DNA of 64,000 nt, taken from Podarcis cretensis. Taxonomy: Eukaryota. Shown here one piece after another: positions 40,181 through 53,323 of the stretch. Positions within the stretch are counted from its first letter, which is position 1; every line of letters starts with the position of its first letter. A model generated the notes under the pieces. It was given only the letters and a program-made list of their open reading frames with translations. It did not search any database and was not told the DNA's origin. The position numbers and the translations under genes are program-made. The DNA lies in NCBI GenBank assembly GCA_951804945.1, contig OX638151.1:73160001-73224000 (forward strand). Reading direction: 5' to 3'.

Positions 40181-40258
40181 ATGGCAACAACAGCTGCAGC
40201 CAAGGAACTACTGCTGAGGAGCTCCAGTGGGGAGGGAGGGCTGCTTCTGACCATGTGA
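40181..40258 (+). other. uORF in the REV3L leader (MATTAAAKELLLRSSSGEGGLLLTM*)
   Basis: ATCATGG strong Kozak context; TGA at 40256-40258; 422 nt upstream of the main ATG. Confidence 0.55.
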
Positions 40259-40602
40259 GGTGTACACAATCGGCTTGGCTGGGGCGAGCTTTGCCCGGGC
40301 TTGCCGCCGCCGCCGCCGCTGTCGCCTGAGGGCTGGAGCGTGCGCGCACACACACGTCGGGCCCCTCCTTCCCTCCCCCCCATGAGTGCTCCGCCCGCTC
40401 GTCCATGCGCACGAGGAAGCGCGCGCGGCGGGCGGGTGAGAGGGAGGGGGCTGCGCTCGAGCTGCGGCGGGGTGGCAGCAGCAGCCGCCGCCGCCGCCGC
40501 CGCCTGAGGAGGCGTAAGTGCGGGGTGGGGGGGCGGTGCACCCCAGCCTCGCGGTGCGCCCAACGGTCGCCCTCAGGGGCGCCTCCCCCCGCAGTGGCGA
40601 AC

Positions 40603-40741
40603 ATGTTCTCAGTGAGGGTCGTGACCGCCGACTACTACATGAGCAGCCCTCTGCCCGGCCTGGACCCCTGCCAGTCCCACTTCAGAGAGGCGCCCGTCAA
40701 GAGGGTGCCCGTCGTGAGAGTCTTCGGAGCCACCCCGGCAG
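40603..40741 (+). CDS. REV3L: REV3L coding exon 1
   Basis: GCGAACATG start; reads MFSVRVVTADYYMSSPLPGLDPCQSHFREAPVKRVPVVRVFGATPAG, the REV3L N-terminus; 139 nt; donor CAG|gtaaga. Confidence 0.97.
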
Positions 40742-43124
40742 GTAAGAGAGAGAGAGAGAACCGCCCAGTCGGGGGTGCAGCAGGTTCCCCCTCCTCCGCC
40801 CCATTGAGAAACCATTCGCGGCTCGGGAATCCTGCGAGCGCAGCAGCCCTTTTCTCGGGGCTGCCTCTCCTTTTTGTGACTGGCTGAGTGACAGGCGCTG
40901 CCTTTCCTCCCTGCGGTGTTGGCGCGCTGCGGCGGGTGCCTCACCTACCTGCCGCCGCCGCCCCCCCTTTGGCCGCTGCGGTTGAGTGAAGTCGCCCATG
41001 GCCGGGGCCCCGCCTGGGGGCGGCGGCGGCGGCGGCAAGCAGCCCCCGCCGCGGTGTGTCTGTATATTATTGTGTTCGCTATGGCACGCAGGCAACGCCG
41101 GGAGAGCGACCGCGCCGCTGACCCCTGACAGTTGCACAGATGGGAGGTGGTCGGAGGGTGGAGGGCGCTCTACTTGCTGCTGGTGTGTCTCGGGTGCACT
41201 GCCAGTGTATCCTGTGCTTGTGCTGCTGGAAGTGGATGGATACGCTCCCCTCCCGCCCCCGTGTATTACAAATATTATAAGCCGTAATGAAACGCAGCTG
41301 TATAAACAGGGCTATTTCATACTAGTGGCAGTACTGAGCAACAACTCATCTTGGGAGGGTTTTTATTGTTGTTGTCTGTTTTAAAGCATAACCTCCCCAG
41401 CTGTAGAATTTCCACCCCACATGTAGGAAGTTCCTGAGCGTGTTCTTATTTCATGAAGGTTTCATTAAGCATCCATAACAGGGACATTTTCAATCCATGT
41501 CCTTTAAATTGTCAGTCTGCAAACTTCATAAATTCGCTGGGTTGGTAAACAAGAGCTGTTGTCTCCACTGCAGGAGTACTATTCTAATCCCTCAGAAAAT
41601 TTCTAAAACTGGTTTTCCTTTCAAAATTCCTTGTTAATATCCATATATTACTACATTCTGTTCTTTTCATTTTTTCTCTACTCTGTCATCTTCCTGCTCC
41701 ACCAGTCAAGCTAACCACTGTTATTGGGTTTTTTAAATAATAATAATAATTTCCCATTACTGTTTTAACAAACTAGTTTTAGTTGATGTTATATAAACCT
41801 TTGGTAGCCATAAAGTGACCTGGACAACTACACAGTTTGTGTTTCAGCTGGGCCACGTATATATTGATGATACCACACAGTGATATTGATTGCATGGTGA
41901 AAGACTGGACTTACACAAGAAAATGACACAATAGTTCAGACTTAGGCCAAATATTGTAATGAATAACAAGGAAGTAGGTTGACAAGATATGCTAGTGTAA
42001 AACATTAATAGCTTTTCTACGATTCTTTGCTTGTGTTTAGTATCCTACATATTATTGGCAGAAGTTAATACGTCACATGTTATTTTCACCTACTTTTTTG
42101 AATTCGTTTTCAGACTAATTATATGAAGGGAGAATATTTGAGTGTTATGTAAACTGGGTAATTGTTTAATTCATAATTCATAAGTATGAAGGAAGCTGTG
42201 GAAGCAGCATGGTTTTTATGCATTAAATGTAGCTTCTTGTTTAGCAAGTGTGGCTCTCTCCTCCCCCCCGCCCTGAGTACTGTGATCAATTATGATGTTT
42301 ACTTTTGGAAATTTTTACACACCCATCCACAGCAGCAGTGAACATCTCTGCATACCCAGTGCAGAGAATGGGGAGGAGAAGCAATATATGTCCTGTGTAA
42401 GCCCAAGAAAAGACATAAAAAACACCCTCCTTTTCTACTGAATTCTCTACAATTCATGGGCAACTTGTGAGATGGAGAGGATATTTTATTTCTTTCCCAC
42501 TGGGCTTTTACAAAAGGGGGGGGGGCAGTACTTCAGTGCCTTCTAGGAATGCCCAGAAAGCACCTTTCTGTTATCCCAGAGTTTTCTGCATATGCCACAG
42601 GGCATGAGAGAAGGGAGGCGGCCACAAGTGAGGGCTGACAACAAGCCAAGATAAAAATTGTCCATCCCTGTATGACAATGGAACATACTATGGCAAAGCC
42701 CCTCCCCCTGCACAATGTAGCATAAAGAGTAATTGAATAAAATTCCCTGATAACATGGTATGCACTTTTAAATGGCCTGTGGAATAAGGTGTTCTTTACT
42801 TCTAAAAAGTTTAAAGATTAGCCTGATACTTCTCCTTGAGAGAGCTACAGAATGGAAAAAGATTTGAGCAGCGCTTCTCAACATCCTTAAAGCTGCCTGC
42901 TATACAATCTTACTTGGGAATAAGCCAAATAATATTCAAAGTGAATTCAGTGGAAGTTACTTTCAGTAAATCTGCATAAGAATGGACTGGAAGTCTCACT
43001 GAAATTGAACAGAATTTTCATATAATGACTGCATATCTGGCAGTACAAAAATTGTCAAGTTACTATTTTGTCATTGTACCATGCCTCAGTATACCTGTAT
43101 TATATAGCTGTGCTATTGTAACCT

Positions 43125-43176
43125 TGTTTTTGGAAGACCATCTTACTCGGCTATGAGTGATCACCAAAGAAGAAGA
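43125..43176 (+). mobile_element. Very short RTE LINE tail
   Basis: tggaagac.atcttactcggcta.gagtgat..cc.aagaagaag matches 3976-4020. Confidence 0.75.
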
Positions 43177-43820
43177 TTTAAAAATCTACAGCTAGTGCAT
43201 TGCTATCAAAGTTTCATGCCTCATCAATTTAGTGTTCCCATGACTTGCATAAGATCCAACATGACAACAGTGACCAGAGTACAGTATTCTTACAAGTGTG
43301 TCCCTCAAATACATCAACCCACAACTTTTTTTTACTAGTCTCTGTTGGCTAGCCTTTGTAAGGCATTGCTGATGGCGGGGGGGGGGGGGGGGGCGCAGCT
43401 CTTCCAATTTACAAAAATTTCCCTGCCTGGTTTTAGGGCAGTGGTCATTTAAAGAACTGCAGTACCAGTTTCTTTATGGAATCCTCTACATAGCAACTAA
43501 TTTTCTGCGGGATGTAGCATGCAACCTCACAGTGAAGCAATCAATATATTGCATAATATAATACTAGAGTGATCATAGCCGGATAAGGGATTTATACATG
43601 AACTACTCAATTTGAATTTTGGTAAATACATTATTTGCATTATTGAATCTTGTGCATTTCATTGGTTGGGGAGCATTTGTATTTTCTCTAGATGGGATAG
43701 AAAATGAGCAGCCAACCATGTGAACAGGCTGGAGATAAGTATTATCATGGTTGCTTCTTAATTTTGTATGCAGACTGACACTGGAAAGTTTCCCTTTGAC
43801 AACTTTATTGCCTTTAACAG

Positions 43821-43944
43821 GAAAATGAGCTAACCTCTAATGGGGAGTAATGAGGAGAATACCAAATAGCTATTGAATGTCCCTACTATGTGTATATTCT
43901 TTGCAAAGGCAAATTCTTCAGCAAGATTTTAGCTCAAAAACAAT
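43821..43944 (+). other. REV3L: Candidate stop-containing (poison) cassette exon in REV3L intron 1; alternative 3' end at 43949
   Basis: Acceptor ctttattgcctttaacag|G and donor AAT|gtaagg. In frame with exon 1 it reads GGA AAA TGA. Size and position resemble the ~128-nt alternative exon described for human REV3L. Confidence 0.6.
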
Positions 43945-44084
43945 GTAAGGTCTAAAATATAAAAGGGCCTTTGGCTGCTGCAAGAAAGACATCAAAGTGG
44001 GCACTAGGTGAAGCTTTCTGGGGAGAATATTTTCAAGCTGAGGCACATCCACTAAAAGGGTTCTTTATCCCACCATACTTCAGA

Positions 44085-44646
44085 TTTTTATTTTATTTTA
44101 TATACGTTGTTAAAAAATATAAATATATTGCTTGATGGTTGAAAACAAAGAAAGCTCAAAGTAGTTTACAAAATATAAAACATTAAAATTATTGCTAAAA
44201 ACAATTACAGTCGTACCTTGGAAGTCAAACGGAATTCGTTCCGGAAGTCTGTTCAACTTCCAAAACATTCAGAAACCAAGGTGCGGCTTCCAATTGGCTG
44301 CAGGAAGCTCCTGCAGCCAATCTGAAGCCGTGTTGGACGTTCGGGTTCCAAAGAACGTTCTCAAGCTGGAACACTCACTTCTGCATTTGTGGTGTTCCGG
44401 AGCCAAAACATTAGACTCGCAAGGCGTTTGGGATCCAAGGTATGACTGTGTAAACAGGTATTTAAAAATATTCAGAAGATGATTAAAATCAACAATAGCT
44501 AAAAATATATAAAACACATATAACTACTTGCTGGCTAGGCATACCTAAACAAAAATGTTTTAAGTAGACAATGAAAAGACTATAGCAAATATAGTTAATA
44601 GGCAGGGCATTCCAACATGTTTGTGCCACCATGCTAAGAGATCGAC

Positions 44647-44684
<38 letters not shown>

Positions 44685-45115
44685 CTGAACGAGTATTATG
44701 TGCCCTGTAACAGTGCCTGTTCTACAGATCAAAGCGACTGTGTGGGCATATATGTGGTAAAGCAATCCTGTAAGTAAACAGCAGGGCTGGGCAATATCTG
44801 GTTTTCAACGTAGTGACATATCACCAGCTAAACATCGTGATATATTCATATATCATGATGTCTGAAATAAGGATGGAACTGTGTAGAAGCAAACGCAGGT
44901 CCTAAGTTGGTAAGGGCTTTATCTACTACAGTAATAGTAAATCCATAAAATTGGCCCACTAGCAAATGAACACCCACATCACAGAACAGAAGAAGGTCTC
45001 ACTCCTGTTAGCAACTGTGCTGCAGCATTCTGCACTAACCGCAGCCCCTAGATTGAACATATGTGAAGCCCCACAAGTGCAGCTCCTAGATTGAGCACAA
45101 GTGCATTGCAGTAAG
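44085..45115 (-). mobile_element. Old L2 fragment with nested MITE, (TG)n and a hAT-like end
   Basis: L2-type segments ggcagggcattcca...gccacc and gctgcagcattctgcactaa. Confidence 0.5.
44208..44448. mobile_element. Tigger-like MITE
   Basis: TA|CAGTCGTACCTTGGA...TCCAAGGTATGACTG. Confidence 0.85.
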
Positions 45116-45116
45116 C

Positions 45117-45245
45117 CAGATGGCTATCATAGTTCCTCTCAGTCTCTTCTTTTACGGGCTAAAGGTACCAAGCTCCTTCAACTGTTCCTCATAAGGCTTG
45201 GTTTCCAGACCCTTGATCATTTTGGTTGTCCTCGTCTGCATACTT
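45117..45245 (-). mobile_element. CR1 ORF2 fragment
   Basis: Minus-strand [40 protein letters not shown]. Confidence 0.8.
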
Positions 45246-48200
45246 CTCTCTGACCTTAAGCTATTCACTATGTCTTAGAGTCTAGACACCTTATAGTGCA
45301 AAGAGCATAAAACTTTTTTATGTCCTGTATAGCACTTCACACATTAGCAACAAACGCCTTCTAGTAGCAGTAGGGTGAGAATGGTAAGGGAGAAGGGTAG
45401 CAAAGGCCTGCTGGTAGCTGCTCTGAGGTACGGAGACAAACAACAATCCTGGTGAAGAGGGAATTTTGTTCCATCGGCTGCTGCCCTCCCTGCACAGCAG
45501 GGTCAATAAAGTAAAGGGACTTATTTTCTTGAAGATCCACTGTATCAGGGGAAGATGGGGATAAGAACTGTACCACATATACCATGACTAATCCAATGTA
45601 ATAGCTAGTAAAGGGGAATACATGTCTTGGATTACTGTATTTTCTTATATGTGGAACTGCCATTGAAAATGGTCTGTAAAATTCAGGTGCCTCCAAACCA
45701 GGCAGTAAGGTTTTTAACAGGGACTGGTTAACATGACCGAATTACATCAGTACATCTTCATTTGCACTGACTTCAACTCTGTTTCCAGGTCCAATTCAAT
45801 CATCATCTGAGGCCCTTTTTCGTGTGCCTCCACAAGAGGTCTGTAGAGCATCAACGTGAGAACAGGCCTTTTCTGCAGTGGCTCCCCGTTTGTGGAATGC
45901 TCTTCCCAGGGAGGCACAGAAATTTTAATAATAATTCAAAGTGCTGATTTAACCTTTAAAGTTCTAAATAGCTATGGCAAGGTGACCTGAATTATCTCCT
46001 CCCATATATACTTAGCCAGATTCTGAAGCACCTTTTCCAGGTGCCCTCACCAAATGATATGCAACTGGTGGTTGCTGGAGAGTGCGCGTTTGGGGCAGTG
46101 GCACTCCAGTTGTTGAATCCCTCTTCAGAAATGCTTGCTTGAAATGCTTTAAAGCCAGTTGAATATATATATATATTGTTTGAAACATGTTTTAATGAAA
46201 AACAAATATATTTGTGTTGGAATTTTCATTGATTTTGGAAAAATCAGGTAAATGCTGAAGTGTTCATTTACGTAGGAGAAAAGATTTTCTTTCCAGGATT
46301 ACTGTGTTATATTGGACACAACAAAATAATGGAAACATGAGCATCAAATACATTGCTGCACCAATTATATGTTTGCATGTGTATGTAAAGCATTTTACAT
46401 GTACATCTAAAAATGTAATGAGTGTTTGCAGCAAATGCATGCTTCCACTGTACATATGATATGGCTGTATACGCCAGGGAGCTGAAGTTGGCCTCAGCTG
46501 GTCTCTCCTCCCACCCTTGTACACATGCTGGTAAACATAAATTTACTGCTGTATAATATTGAAGTAGCCCTTGGTGTTGTTTTTACTGATTTAATACCAT
46601 TTTCATACAATAAGAAAGTAAAAAAGATTAACTAGCTTGTAATGGAAATGTGTATTCCAGTTTCATAATTTATAATAAGAAATAAACAAGTAGAGAAAAG
46701 TAGTTTTAAATTCTTGAGAAAGTGGTACTATAGTCAGTATTTGCTTTATCCTTGTCTTGCATTTTATTATCAGTCATTTGGCCTATGTATAAATCCTATG
46801 TATGGCAAGAAAACACACTAAATTGGTAGAATGATATACTTTGCTTTTACCAAACTGCAGCCACATGCCAAAGGAGTTTTATTTATTTTTTGTTACATTG
46901 CTAACTTGCCTTCACTCGAAGTTTGGGTAGTATATATGAAGTCAATTCCCTCTCTCTGCTGCTCCCTCCCTCCTTGTTTACGCAGTGTGAATGGCCTGAT
47001 TCTTGATTCTGTGGTCAAGATTTTTTCTGAAACTACTTCTCCAAATCTTACACTGAATTTTTATTTGCCTCTTTGTTTCTACAAGCCACTGCACCAAAAA
47101 ATATTGATCCCTCACTCCAGTCATGGTTTTCAGCTATACATATAAAGCTCTGGATTGTAGTGTAGTAGAGAATCAAAACTGTTAACACCTCAGATATTCC
47201 CACCCCCAGCCCTACAGGGAGTACTACTATAATTGCTGTTTACTTAGAAAAAAAAGGATCCCTTGATACCAAGTAGCAGCCACAACAAGGAAATGCTTTA
47301 AAATCTTGTGATTTCGGGTCATTCCTATTTTTTTGCTAACATGTCTTACATGTTTATCTTAATGGTTATAGTTTGATTGATTGGATTCATTCACTGCCTT
47401 TTGTCAATGCAGTGTACAATTTTGGAATTGTTCAGTTTTACAGTTCTCCCACCCACTCACCTGCAGATAAGGTAAAGCAAACAAACAGAAACAACCCCGC
47501 CCCCATCCCATTTTCATTCTCATGGAGCTGATTATATCTGTTGGTCCTGTGGGAGGAAGGAACAGACTCACTGGCACACACACATATGGTAACGTTTTCC
47601 TGCAGTGGGGATGGAATTCTCAGGTGCCTAATAGCAAATTTGGATTTTTCCAAAATCTGTGATAGTGTCGTGGAATTAAACAGGAAAATTGAGTATATGA
47701 GCAATATTTTTTCTATGTATGTATCTATGAGGCCTTTTTGTATATGAAATTCCCTGACCTACTCTGTTGTCATTCTGGACTGGCTAATTTTGTTTTAATT
47801 AGGTTTATGTTTTATTTAATGTTTTAATGCTTCCTAATAAGGAAAATATGGTAATTTTCCTTTGAAATAACATGGCATAAAAATGCATAAACTTATATTC
47901 ATGTATTTTCCCTATACAGTTAAAATATATAGTACTGCCATTGAAAAGTATTGTATATGACTAAGGTCTATTAGTTTCATTGGTCTACTCCAAATAATGC
48001 CACCCATAGCCATACAAAGATGGTTTGCCAAAACAATAAGAGCAGCATCCATATCTCTCCATCTTGTGAATTAACATAGATAAACAGGGACCACATAGCC
48101 AAGAAGCCATGTTTTTGTATTCTTCCTTCACTAGTTTACATTGCTGAATTAATTTTTCATCCAGGGCTAGTTGCTGGTACCAACTTCAAGTAGAAAATGT

Positions 48201-49210
48201 TTCCAGCCTTTGAGTTTTGCACTATTTCCATAAGCGCTGCAAGGAACACTTTGAAGATCAAGTCCTTGCATAATGATTATTTGGTTCCCCTCCCCTGCAA
48301 AAAAAAGTGAGGGCCCAGTCTAATTGAATGGACTGCTACTCTGTTTCCTAGTACAACCTGACAGAGAAAAGGTGCCACTTGAATCTCAGGCCAAAGTTAT
48401 GCCATGTTGAATTCCTACCCAGTCAGGACAATATTTTCCAGACACTTTTTTCATTCCTTAAGCCTTTTAACAAGGGATCGAAGTTTATCACCTATTTGTA
48501 AAATAATCTTAGTTATAATGATAGCAATGTATTGAAAGCTGCTGAATTTCAAAGTCAAGTATGAAATGGATTTTTGCAAGTGCTTCTGCACTAAAAGTGA
48601 TAAATTAATACAAAAGATAACGAGCGTTGCATAATTATTTTTAAACCACTCACCTTATGGAAGCAGTCTAATTGACTTCAGTGCTGAAAATGTCAGTACG
48701 GAGTTCAAAGTGTTAATAGCATATAATCAGCAAAAAGACTGATTGGTAATATGTTTCATATCATTTGTGTTTATACTTTGAAATCCAGGAGCCACTTTAT
48801 GTTTTTGAACCAATGCTTCTATTGCATTTGCAAAGAGGATTTGGGACAGTAGACATCCTTGTTTGGTGCTCTAGGTCTGTTAGGATGAATAAGAAGGATT
48901 GTAAATTTTGCATTGTTAGAAATTTCATAGAAACAAACAGAAATACTATTGTGTAGACTTCAAACTTGATGAAAAACAGGCCACACAGTAAACCTGTTTC
49001 TATGAACTATCCACCTTGTTTAAGGTGTTCATATCTCACATATACTCATGAATCTATGTTTATAGGTTACTTTCAATAGAATTAATTTGATTTTTTATTA
49101 TTTCCCTTAAAAGTTAGTGAATTATATTAATTGTTTTGGCAAATAGGTTTGACAACTTTCTGGAATCTTCCAGTTTTATGATTCTCAAATATTGGTATCT
49201 GGTCCTCTAG

Positions 49211-49400
49211 GTCAGAAGACTTGCCTCCATTTACATGGTATTTTTCCTTACCTGTATGTGCCATATGATGGTTATGGGCAGCTGGCAGAACATTATCTGC
49301 GTCATTTGGCATTCAGCATTGACCGAGCACTGAATGTAGCTTTAGGAAATCCATCCTCTTCTGTTCAGCATGTATTCAAAGTGTCACTAGTATATGGAAT
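49211..49400 (+). CDS. REV3L: REV3L exon 2
   Basis: Reads GQKTCLHLHGIFPYLYVPYDGYG...AFSIDRALNVALGNPSSSVQHVFKVSLVYG; junctions ctctag| and |gtaagt. Confidence 0.97.
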
Positions 49401-49524
49401 GTAAGTATTACTTTATTATCCCTTTTTAATTTGGTGGGTTGTGGGGCGTGAGTTGCTGTTGACAAAATTTAAAGAAACTTATAAGGTATTCAGGTTATAA
49501 AGCACTGTTAGTTAATAAAGGATT

Positions 49525-49733
49525 TAGAATCATAGAATTGTAGAGTTGAAAGGGATCCTGAGAATCATCTAGTCCAAACTCTTTAAATGCAGGACTCTCA
49601 ACTAAAGTATCCATGACAGATGGCCATGAGAATCTACAACCACCTGGGGGAGTATGTTTCACTCTCAAACAAGTCTTATTGTCAGAAAGTTCTTCCCAAT
49701 GTTTAGTAAGAATCTCCCTTCTTGTAACTTGAA
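49525..49733 (-). mobile_element. CR1 LINE 3' end
   Basis: Tail tagaatcatagaattgtagagttg followed by gtcagaaagttcttcc.aatgtttag. Confidence 0.75.
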
Positions 49734-50371
49734 GAAAGGTGTATTAATACTTCTGCAAAGGCTTTGAGTTGACAATACTTGTTAGTATCCTTATACACAG
49801 AAGAGAACAACTTTCCCCCTCCCAGTAAGTCATTTCATTTCCCACTCTCTCACCAGTTTTGTTGCCCTTTTGATGCCATGTAAATTTGATGTCCTGAGTT
49901 TAATTCAACCCCAACTTTTCTTTCTCTGAAGATTTTTTTTTAAAGTGGGCTATAAATTTATTAAACAAAATAATTTAATATATTGACTACTTAGGTTTCC
50001 AGTACACTTGTGCTGTATTCTTTAACATACTATATTTTTGGTAAGCTTTTGTAATATTTCCTGGATAGTTTGAGAACCATATGCAAAAGATTTGTTTTAA
50101 AGCCATCTAGGATTGTGTTAGTAAGCAAAGTCTTACCTTTCAAGTCCTGTGATTCACTCTGGTCCATTTACTACATAGTTTTTGGATGATAAAATGCCCC
50201 TCATGTAGGAGTAGGAAACAGCCATAATTATGATGCACAGAGGATATCCAAATCTGGAGCTTAGTGGAAGGTCTAAAGTGCTGAACTGCCATTTACTACA
50301 ATAGAGTTGTTCAGCATACAGATCATAGGACAAACAGTAACCTTACACCTTACTGAATATTTGTTTTCCAG

Positions 50372-50446
50372 ACCTTTTTATGGTTACCATGAAAAAGAAA
50401 GACAATTTATGAAGATCTACCTTTATAATCCTGCTATGGTGAAAAG
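50372..50446 (+). CDS. REV3L: REV3L exon 3
   Basis: Reads PFYGYHEKERQFMKIYLYNPAMVK; junctions ttccag| and |gtaatg. Confidence 0.96.
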
Positions 50447-52321: not shown

Positions 52322-52692
52322 GGGACGCAGGTGGCGCTGTGGGTTAAAGCCTCAGCGCCTAGGGCTTGCCGATCGAAAGGTCGGCGGTTCGAATCCCTGC
52401 AGCGGGGTGCGCTCCCGCTGCTCGGTCCCAGCGCCTGCCAACCTAGCAGTTCGAAAGCACCTCCGGGTGCAAGTAGATAAATAGGGACCGCTTACCAGCG
52501 GGAAGGTAAACGGCGTTTCCGTGTGCGGCTCTGCCTCTGGCTCTGGCCAGAGCAGCGATGTCACGCTGGCCACGTGACCCGGAAGTGTCTCCGGACAGCG
52601 CTGGCCCCTGGCCTCTTAAGTGAGATGGGCGCACAACCCCAGAGTCTGTCAAGACTGGCCCGTACGGGCAGGGGTACCTTTACCTTTACCTT
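52322..52692 (+). mobile_element. Sauria SINE, full length
   Basis: GGGACGCAGGTGGCGCTGTGG A box, GGTTCGAATCC B box, (ACCTTT)n tail; TSD TATGATT at 52315-52321 and 52693-52699. Confidence 0.95.
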
Positions 52693-53323
52693 TATGATTG
52701 AGGCAATGTGTGTACACAGACATTTCCCCTTTCCCCTGTAGGACCTTGTTAACATTTCTCAAGCTCCTCCTTCCATGAATGTCAATAATTATCTTTGACT
52801 CTCTACCGTGACACTACTTTTCAACACTGGGAGAGCAGGTTTAGCCCTTATTTATTTATTTTTTTAAATTACACCCTGTTTTTCACTATCGAAATCTCAA
52901 AGCATCTTACAACGATAAAAATATACATTTAAAAAATAAATTAAACCTCAGATGCTTAAAACCTCAGAAATATAAACAAAGAAAATTTACCTCAACTGCT
53001 AGATTGCGACCGCTTCAAATTCTCTGACAGAAATGTCTGGCTCAGATTAATTTCTTCCAAAACCATACTTTTTTTATCAGGCAACAGGAAACTCGTACTG
53101 TTGTGAGAGGACAGTTGAGTTATACTAATGGGCATTTGGTTAGGGACCAATCTGTGGAACAGAGTATTGAGAACAAATAAAATATGTGACCCAAGCAAAA
53201 AAAAAGCTAAGGCCCTAGAAGCTCAAACTTTGTTGGAAAGTATTAGTAGGTTCTCTTCTACTTATGCAACGCCCAATGTTCTCTGAATCTGAAAAGGGCA
53301 AACAAGTGGGATTAGAGAGTTTT

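What the first reader, a model, noticed from the sequence alone, without database searches (positions are those of the whole stretch)
43821..43949. Candidate poison cassette exon in REV3L intron 1
Seen in sequence: a non-repetitive island in a TE-rich intron, with a good acceptor (ttattgcctttaacag|G) and donor (AAT|gtaagg, 124-nt exon; or AAG|gtctaa, 129 nt). Spliced after exon 1 it gives G-K-stop (TGA 43826-43828). It has stops in all three frames and several ATGs that open only short ORFs. Known: human REV3L transcripts can include a ~128-nt stop-containing exon after coding nt 139. Inference: this is the orthologous exon, which would make unproductive splicing an amniote-wide control on Pol zeta dosage.
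Basis: partly seen in the sequence, partly recalled or inferred. Interest (0 to 1): 0.7.

Follow-up and report, generated by a model that had tools for sequence, protein, structure and literature searches.

The report
Unproven poison exon in lizard REV3L
A stretch of the first intron of a lizard's REV3L (DNA polymerase zeta) gene has splice-like ends and would add an early stop if spliced in, but it is likely a chance look-alike of the known mammalian poison exon: its signals are ordinary, its exit site likely comes from an old repeat, and the RNA assemblies examined skip it.

Summary
The coordinates are right: REV3L exon 1 (139 coding nt), AG|GAAAATGA at 43821, donors at 43944/43949, G-K-stop on inclusion. 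But the signals are ordinary: the pair ranks 24 of 74 AG/GT pairs in this intron, and 77% of random 124-mers there have stops in all frames. 'Non-repetitive' fails at the 3' end: a decayed antisense copy of an abundant repeat begins at the donors and likely supplies them. RNA contigs of 4 of 4 runs join exon 1 straight to exon 2. The mammalian 128-nt exon is real and already listed as a poison exon, but its product ends Glu-stop, not Gly-Lys-stop. In favour: same intron, similar size, three in-frame stops, and the mammal-compatible AATGA three bases inside (post hoc; 4 of 269 control pairs). No amniote intron DNA could be aligned, so orthology is untested. Verdict: likely pseudo-exon (0.55); orthologous cassette 0.2. 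Side result: the Met79 restart behind the mammalian short isoform is absent from reptiles and birds, so any such exon here could only be unproductive. The scan's earlier notes hold nothing on REV3L.

The parts
40603..40741 (+). REV3L first coding exon (139 coding nt, phase-1 donor CAG|gtaaga)
   Evidence: translation and tblastn to vertebrate REV3L; joined to 49211 in contigs of 4 of 4 runs
43821..43944 (+). candidate cassette (124 nt): weak acceptor, middling donor, G-K-stop and three in-frame stops if included; not seen spliced
   Evidence: skipped by the joining contigs
43826..43828 (+). TGA that would be codon 49 after inclusion; AATGA at 43824-43828 fits the A-[AG]-stop start inferred for the mammalian exon, shifted by 3 nt
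43774..43944 (+). alternative reading with a stronger upstream acceptor (171 nt, Asp-stop, a 47-residue product like the mammalian one)
   Evidence: acceptor beats 16 of 29 real ones; pair ranks 4 of 74; translation
43945..44069 (-). decayed copy of an abundant interspersed repeat (likely a LINE 3' end); its end motif overlaps both candidate donors
   Evidence: 76 of 109 columns identical to copy L048 over 43963-44064; profile hit E=0.0018, 9.7 bits vs at most 4.7 in 40 shuffles, envelope 43966-44051; the extension over 43945-43960 rests on inspection of the alignment
46129..46247 (+). best-scoring AG/GT pair of intron 1 (119 nt, E-M-L-A-stop); its acceptor lies in a decayed plus-strand copy of the same repeat
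   Evidence: rank 1 of 74; profile hit 46095-46143, E=0.0064; alignment
49211..49400 (+). REV3L exon 2 (190 nt); Leu at the place of mammalian Met79, no in-frame Met, 8 out-of-frame ATGs

Best explanation
The segment is likely a pseudo-exon: ordinary intron sequence of REV3L intron 1 whose weak AG acceptor and likely repeat-derived GT donor happen to sit 124 nt apart, and which the assembled transcripts skip by joining exon 1 directly to exon 2. Shown: the sites, their rank among the intron's other AG/GT pairs, the adjacent decayed antisense repeat, and the exon 1-exon 2 join in RNA contigs. Inferred: that the donor arose by drift in the repeat's end motif, that the repeat entered in the lizard lineage, and that inclusion is absent or negligible. 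If it were included at a low rate, the message would stop at codon 49 and make no Pol zeta, because the next in-frame Met is residue 123.
For: Pair ranks 24 of 74 in intron 1; acceptor beats 3 of 29 real acceptors. Stops in all frames occur in 77% of random 124-mers. Both donors fall at the end of a decayed repeat copy of a family with 3952 first-look candidates in the genome; mean pairwise score 36.4 against 29 copies vs at most 24.3 in 300 shuffles. One contig in each of 4 of 4 runs (4 studies, 3 coded organisms; depth 5.2-23.6) joins 40741 to 49211 across the segment. Mammalian non-productive products end Glu-stop directly after exon 1 (4 of the 14 short proteins found: mouse Q9Z281/AAC98786.1, hominid isoforms 3/6, two unnamed mammal-like ORFs), not Gly-Lys-stop. 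0 of 39 listed squamate cluster members start at residue 110 or 123, against 6 of 15 primates starting at Met79.
Against: Same intron and nearly the same size as the mammalian exon (124 vs 128). Donor 43944 is among the 5 best of 483 GTs in the intron. Alternative exons often have weak sites (established knowledge). Contigs drop minor isoforms, and a decayed message would be rare. 3 of 15 listed turtle and 2 of 28 listed bird proteins start at residue 110 or 123, which a sauropsid cassette could cause. The runs are of related coded organisms, not shown to be the window's species.
Confidence: 0.55

Rival explanations
1. Orthologue of the mammalian 128-nt cassette: an amniote exon, included at a low rate, whose acceptor has shifted by 3 nt (or lies at 43774), making a non-productive REV3L message that limits Pol zeta dosage.
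For: Same intron, 124 vs 128 nt, three in-frame stops as in human; AATGA in frame at +3, 1 of 11 in the intron vs 4 of 269 controls; acceptor 43774 would give Asp-stop, a 47-residue product like the mammalian Glu-stop; exon body single-copy; N-truncated isoforms in some turtles and birds.
Against: First codons differ at the stated acceptor; donors lie in a repeat copy 70% like lizard copies; position 36% into the intron vs 16% in human (weak, since insertions move it); skipped in contigs of 4 of 4 runs; no sauropsid short product ending just after exon 1 other than intron read-through among the proteins.
Confidence: 0.2
2. A lizard-lineage exon made by exonization: an antisense repeat supplied a donor, and the segment is included at a low rate as a poison exon that works like the mammalian one without being homologous.
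For: Donor is among the 5 best GTs of the intron and sits in a repeat end; inclusion would stop translation at codon 49 with no restart before Met123.
Against: Skipped in contigs of 4 of 4 runs; weak acceptor; nothing shows selection on the sites.
Confidence: 0.15
3. Intron 1 has a real cassette, but elsewhere, most plausibly 46129-46247 (119 nt, E-M-L-A-stop).
For: Best pair of 74, both sites at or above the median of real REV3L sites; begins with Glu and has the same length modulo 3 as 128; run X4 alone shows a depth of 0.57 in bin 46076-46436 (not resolved).
Against: Its acceptor lies in a decayed repeat copy; no stop at codon 48; the joining contigs skip it too and no junction to it is among the 15 joints shown, 37 being hidden.
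Confidence: 0.1

Closest known systems
Human and mouse REV3L 128-nt alternative exon between cDNA 139 and 140 (PMC6895278 passage; PMC9882217 supplement row chr6:111,472,012-111,472,139, NMD_in, splice sites kept mouse-human by that paper's filter; mouse 'Rev3l exon 2' reported as circadian and a Sam68 target in PMC3446320)
   Same: Same gene and intron, similar length (124 vs 128), three in-frame stops, early stop within two codons of exon 1, predicted non-productive outcome.
   Different: Mammalian exon is documented in transcripts; this one is not seen in RNA. Product ends Glu-stop vs Gly-Lys-stop. Length modulo 3 is 2 vs 1. Mammals have Met79 for a proposed 3052-aa short form; this lizard has Leu79 and Ile110. 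Donor here likely lies in a repeat. Sequence homology untested.
Intronic pseudo-exons and repeat-derived cryptic exons (exonization of antisense interspersed repeats; established knowledge, recalled)
   Same: Splice-like pair in a long repeat-rich intron, one site supplied by a decayed antisense repeat, skipped in the main transcript.
   Different: Only the donor, not the exon body, is repeat-derived; low-level use has not been excluded.

Membership tests
Orthologue of the mammalian REV3L 128-nt cassette | lies between coding nt 139 and 140 of REV3L | tested here: met
   between exon 1 end 40741 and exon 2 start 49211
Orthologue of the mammalian REV3L 128-nt cassette | nucleotide homology to the human or mouse exon | not testable with these tools
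   no amniote intron DNA among 31 loci; a fish-like locus L002 shows no likeness outside exon 2; papers gave coordinates only
Orthologue of the mammalian REV3L 128-nt cassette | exon starts A-[AG]-stop so that the product is exon 1 + Glu-stop (47 aa) | tested here: not met
   43821 gives Gly-Lys-stop (48 aa); the motif is present 3 nt inside, and acceptor 43774 gives Asp-stop. That the 47-aa records come from the 128-nt exon is my inference.
Orthologue of the mammalian REV3L 128-nt cassette | about 128 nt with three in-frame stops | tested here: met
   124 nt, three stops; but 47 of 269 control pairs also have exactly three
Poison (PTC-introducing) cassette exon | inclusion creates a premature stop more than 50 nt upstream of a later junction | tested here: met
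   TGA 43826-43828, 116 nt before the cassette's own donor; true of about 91% of random segments in a given frame
Poison (PTC-introducing) cassette exon | actually spliced into transcripts | tested here: inconclusive
   contigs of 4 of 4 runs join across it, but contigs drop minor forms; raw reads too shallow at the 5' end
Poison (PTC-introducing) cassette exon | inclusion form stabilised by NMD inhibition | not testable with these tools
   no such data reachable
Poison (PTC-introducing) cassette exon | splice sites and flanks conserved across species | not testable with these tools
Repeat-derived splice site | site lies within a recognisable repeat copy | tested here: met
   significant match over 43961-44069; donors at 43945-43955 align to the copies' end motif by inspection
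Repeat-derived splice site | repeat family identified | tested here: inconclusive
   of 12 upstream frames scanned (12 of 29 copies), one has a sub-threshold endonuclease hit, one an unrelated gene, ten none; the label 'L2-like LINE 3' end' is recalled, from no call

The most novel reading that the evidence does not exclude
Lizard REV3L carries a working poison exon in the same intron as mammals, either inherited from the amniote ancestor or rebuilt with a donor from an antisense repeat. Because reptiles and birds lack Met79 (and this lizard also Met110), the exon could only switch Pol zeta off, showing that dosage control, not the proposed short mitochondrial isoform, is the old function of this splice event.
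Probability: 0.35. Interest if true: 0.45.

Novelty: not a real feature. Interest (0 to 1): 0.17.

Why it matters
Pol zeta is a mutagenic polymerase kept at low levels, and the purpose of the mammalian 128-nt exon is disputed: a non-functional transcript that limits REV3L, or a short isoform from Met79 aimed at mitochondria (PMC6895278, PMC4604079 passages). A reptile orthologue would date the switch to the amniote ancestor and, with Met79 absent, favour dosage control. As it stands the evidence does not show that this lizard segment is an exon, so the gain is small: an extension of a known exon at best, a pseudo-exon most likely.

Tried and rejected
Raw RNA reads (4 of the 5 raw runs listed, 6-13% of each read): depth 0 in bin 43462-43988 in 4 of 4, but the exon 1-exon 2 junction was not listed either, so uninformative. 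No RNA holder was on record in the run search, which was made with the exon 2 region rather than the cassette. No contig cover in bin 43549-43909 in 4 of 4 contig runs (4 of the 14 listed). Metagenome scan for exon 2 relatives: 31 loci, one fish-like, no amniote. tblastn of 245 N-termini and of 115 post-exon-1 tails against intron 1: nothing credible. Short sauropsid proteins ending G-K-G or G-K-R are intron read-through, not cassette products. RNA fold of 43740-43980: no unusual stability, z=+0.91. Rfam: nothing at the segment. Sam68-type U(U/A)AA motifs downstream of the donor: not enriched, 44% of background windows as rich. Bacterial promoter scan: not applicable. Direct own-genome search with the repeat stretch found only itself; the copy is too decayed for that search and needed a profile. 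First full-length profile was not significant (E=0.029, 3.4 bits vs 3.5 in 20 shuffles); the 3'-end profile was. One search used one acceptor misplaced by a base; one search corrects it. Supplements of PMC7726792, PMC8187152 (one file each unreadable) had no REV3L; PMC8091538 had one unrelated event; the PMC12856215 supplement with REV3L junction primers could not be read and might have given exon sequence. Gibbs 1998, Chawla 2009 and Yan 2015 were not held. Ten paper searches listed no paper on this exon in reptiles or birds, judged from listings.

Full report
Setting. The window lies on a 127-Mb contig of a 1.5-Gb genome. Its REV3L exons 1-4 give 188 residues that match 186-187 positions of a protein cluster containing Lacerta agilis REV3L, so this is a lacertid-like lizard (inference). 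Exon 1 codes 139 nt (40603-40741), intron 1 is 8469 nt, exon 2 is 49211-49400.

Observation. To ask whether this is more than chance I mapped the gene's own splice sites from the window and 60 kb beyond it and built matrices from 29 acceptors and 30 donors. The acceptor at 43821 beats 3 of 29 real acceptors (leave-one-out), donor 43944 beats 8 of 30, donor 43949 1 of 30. In intron 1, 32 of 509 AGs and 5 of 483 GTs score as well; the pair ranks 24 of 74 pairs of 50-250 nt and 4 of 11 pairs of 110-146 nt. Stops in all three frames occur in 77% of 5000 random 124-mers of the intron. The matrix is crude (about 30 sites, no dependencies), so ranks are approximate.

The 3' edge is not repeat-free. 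The exon body is single-copy by direct search. A repeat at 45790-45920 has 3952 first-look candidates in the genome, 40 scored. With 29 of those copies, the minus strand of 43963-44064 matches copy L048 at 76 of 109 columns; the mean score of 43900-44080 against the 29 copies is 36.4 against at most 24.3 in 300 shuffles, while the exon body scores 20.6; a profile of the 3' part hits 43986-44031 at E=0.0018, 9.7 bits against at most 4.7 in 40 shuffles. A first, longer profile was not significant. By inspection the alignment runs on to the copies' AGGCCTT motif, which falls on the reverse complement of both donors with the same spacing; this last step is outside the profile envelope and is inferred. 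The strongest pair of the intron, 46129-46247, takes its acceptor from a plus-strand copy of the same family. The family was not named by Pfam; 'LINE 3' end' is a recalled resemblance.

RNA. In contigs of 4 of 4 runs laid (4 of 14 listed; 4 studies; coded organisms A, B, C, close relatives rather than shown to be the same species) one contig joins exon 1 to exon 2 across the whole intron, at depth 18.4, 23.6, 8.6 and 5.2. So skipping is the main form. Contigs drop minor variants, and the raw reads were too shallow at this end of the gene to count anything, so low inclusion is not excluded.

The mammalian exon. A review (PMC6895278, passages seen) describes a 128-bp insertion between cDNA positions 139 and 140 with three in-frame stops, a proposed form 78 residues shorter, and a test in which only the reference isoform made protein; the primary papers were not seen. 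A poison-exon table (PMC9882217, passages and three supplement rows seen) lists chr6:111,472,012-111,472,139, 128 nt, NMD_in, 16% into the intron, selected for splice sites kept between mouse and human. Mouse Rev3l exon 2 is reported as circadian in liver and as a Sam68 target (PMC3446320, one passage and a supplement legend). 'REV3L exon 3' inclusion responds to PRMT5 inhibition in an E2F1-dependent way (PMC12856215, passages); that this is the same exon is my guess. PMC4604079 (passages) argues for a 3052-aa mitochondrial form from a second AUG.

An indirect look at the mammalian sequence. Of 14 proteins of 25-81 residues related to exon 1, four end in Glu directly after exon 1: mouse Q9Z281/AAC98786.1, hominid 'REV3L isoform 3/6' and two unnamed mammal-like ORFs; a muntjac cluster member ends in Val. 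Genomic read-through gives G-K-R or G-K-G instead. I infer these are the cassette's products, so the mammalian exon begins A-[AG]-stop. The candidate begins GAAAATGA, giving G-K-stop: not the same. Yet AATGA lies three bases inside, in frame; among 11 size-matched pairs in intron 1 only the candidate has the motif at offset 0 or +3 and exactly three stops, against 4 of 269 (motif) and 47 of 269 (three stops) control pairs. With 11 tries and a rule chosen afterwards this is modest support. A stronger acceptor 47 nt upstream (43774) would give Asp-stop and shares donor 43944 (171 nt); 28 of 509 AGs in the intron are followed by two bases and a stop.

Restart codons. Among the 120 full-length REV3L proteins listed (of 836 found), 79 have Met at position 79, 37 have Val, Leu or Phe (birds, turtles, alligator, squamates, platypus) and 4 did not match the pattern. 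This lizard has Leu79 and Ile110; the first in-frame Met after exon 1 is residue 123, behind 8 out-of-frame ATGs in exon 2. Cluster listings show 6 of 15 primate proteins starting at Met79, 3 of 15 turtle and 2 of 28 bird proteins starting at 110 or 123, and 0 of 39 squamate ones; only up to 15 members per cluster are listed and the cause of truncation is not visible.

Verdict. Most likely (0.55) a pseudo-exon with a repeat-derived donor that is skipped. Rivals: orthologous low-inclusion cassette (0.2), lizard-lineage exonization working the same way (0.15), a real cassette elsewhere in the intron (0.1). In either poison reading the mechanism would be inclusion, stop at codon 49, no useful restart, less Pol zeta; every step past the sequence is inferred. 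The known mammalian exon is the closest system; membership fails on the first codons, is met on position, size and stop count, and is untested on homology and use. Ten paper searches listed nothing on this exon outside mammals, and four look-ups in the scan's earlier notes held nothing on REV3L. Unread supplements and papers not held may contain the exon's sequence or its conservation.

Noticed in passing
window 49211-50446: Neither mammalian Met79 nor the widely kept Met110 is present (Leu79, Ile110); Met79 appears limited to therian mammals among the proteins listed, so the proposed short mitochondrial REV3L form cannot be general to amniotes.
   Followed up: yes
window 40181-40602: Four upstream ATGs: a 25-codon ORF at 40181 whose start resembles a stretch of a rattlesnake gene model (P0262), a 41-codon out-of-frame ORF at 40382, and an in-frame 66-codon extension from 40405 used in two related gene models (P0161, P0162); donor-like sites at 40254, 40435, 40513. 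RNA contigs begin at 40527 and 40560, so these are not shown to be in the mRNA.
   Followed up: partly
   Followed up: no
window 42114: Strong acceptor followed by Asp-stop, 16% into the intron like the human exon, but with no good donor 100-160 nt downstream.
   Followed up: partly
P0194 (Dermochelys coriacea isoform X1): A 21-residue in-frame insertion between exons 1 and 2; no match in the lizard intron.
   Followed up: partly
PMC9882217 supplement: Two further REV3L poison exons are listed in human (chr6:111,320,589-111,321,049 and 111,330,185-111,330,311); not looked for in the lizard.
   Followed up: no
window 46358-46427: Weak Rfam mir-1277 match, 27 bits against a gathering score of 81, E=0.12; likely chance.
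   Followed up: no
window 52322-52694: Repeat in intron 4 that draws most of the RNA reads laid on the region, from copies elsewhere.
   Followed up: no
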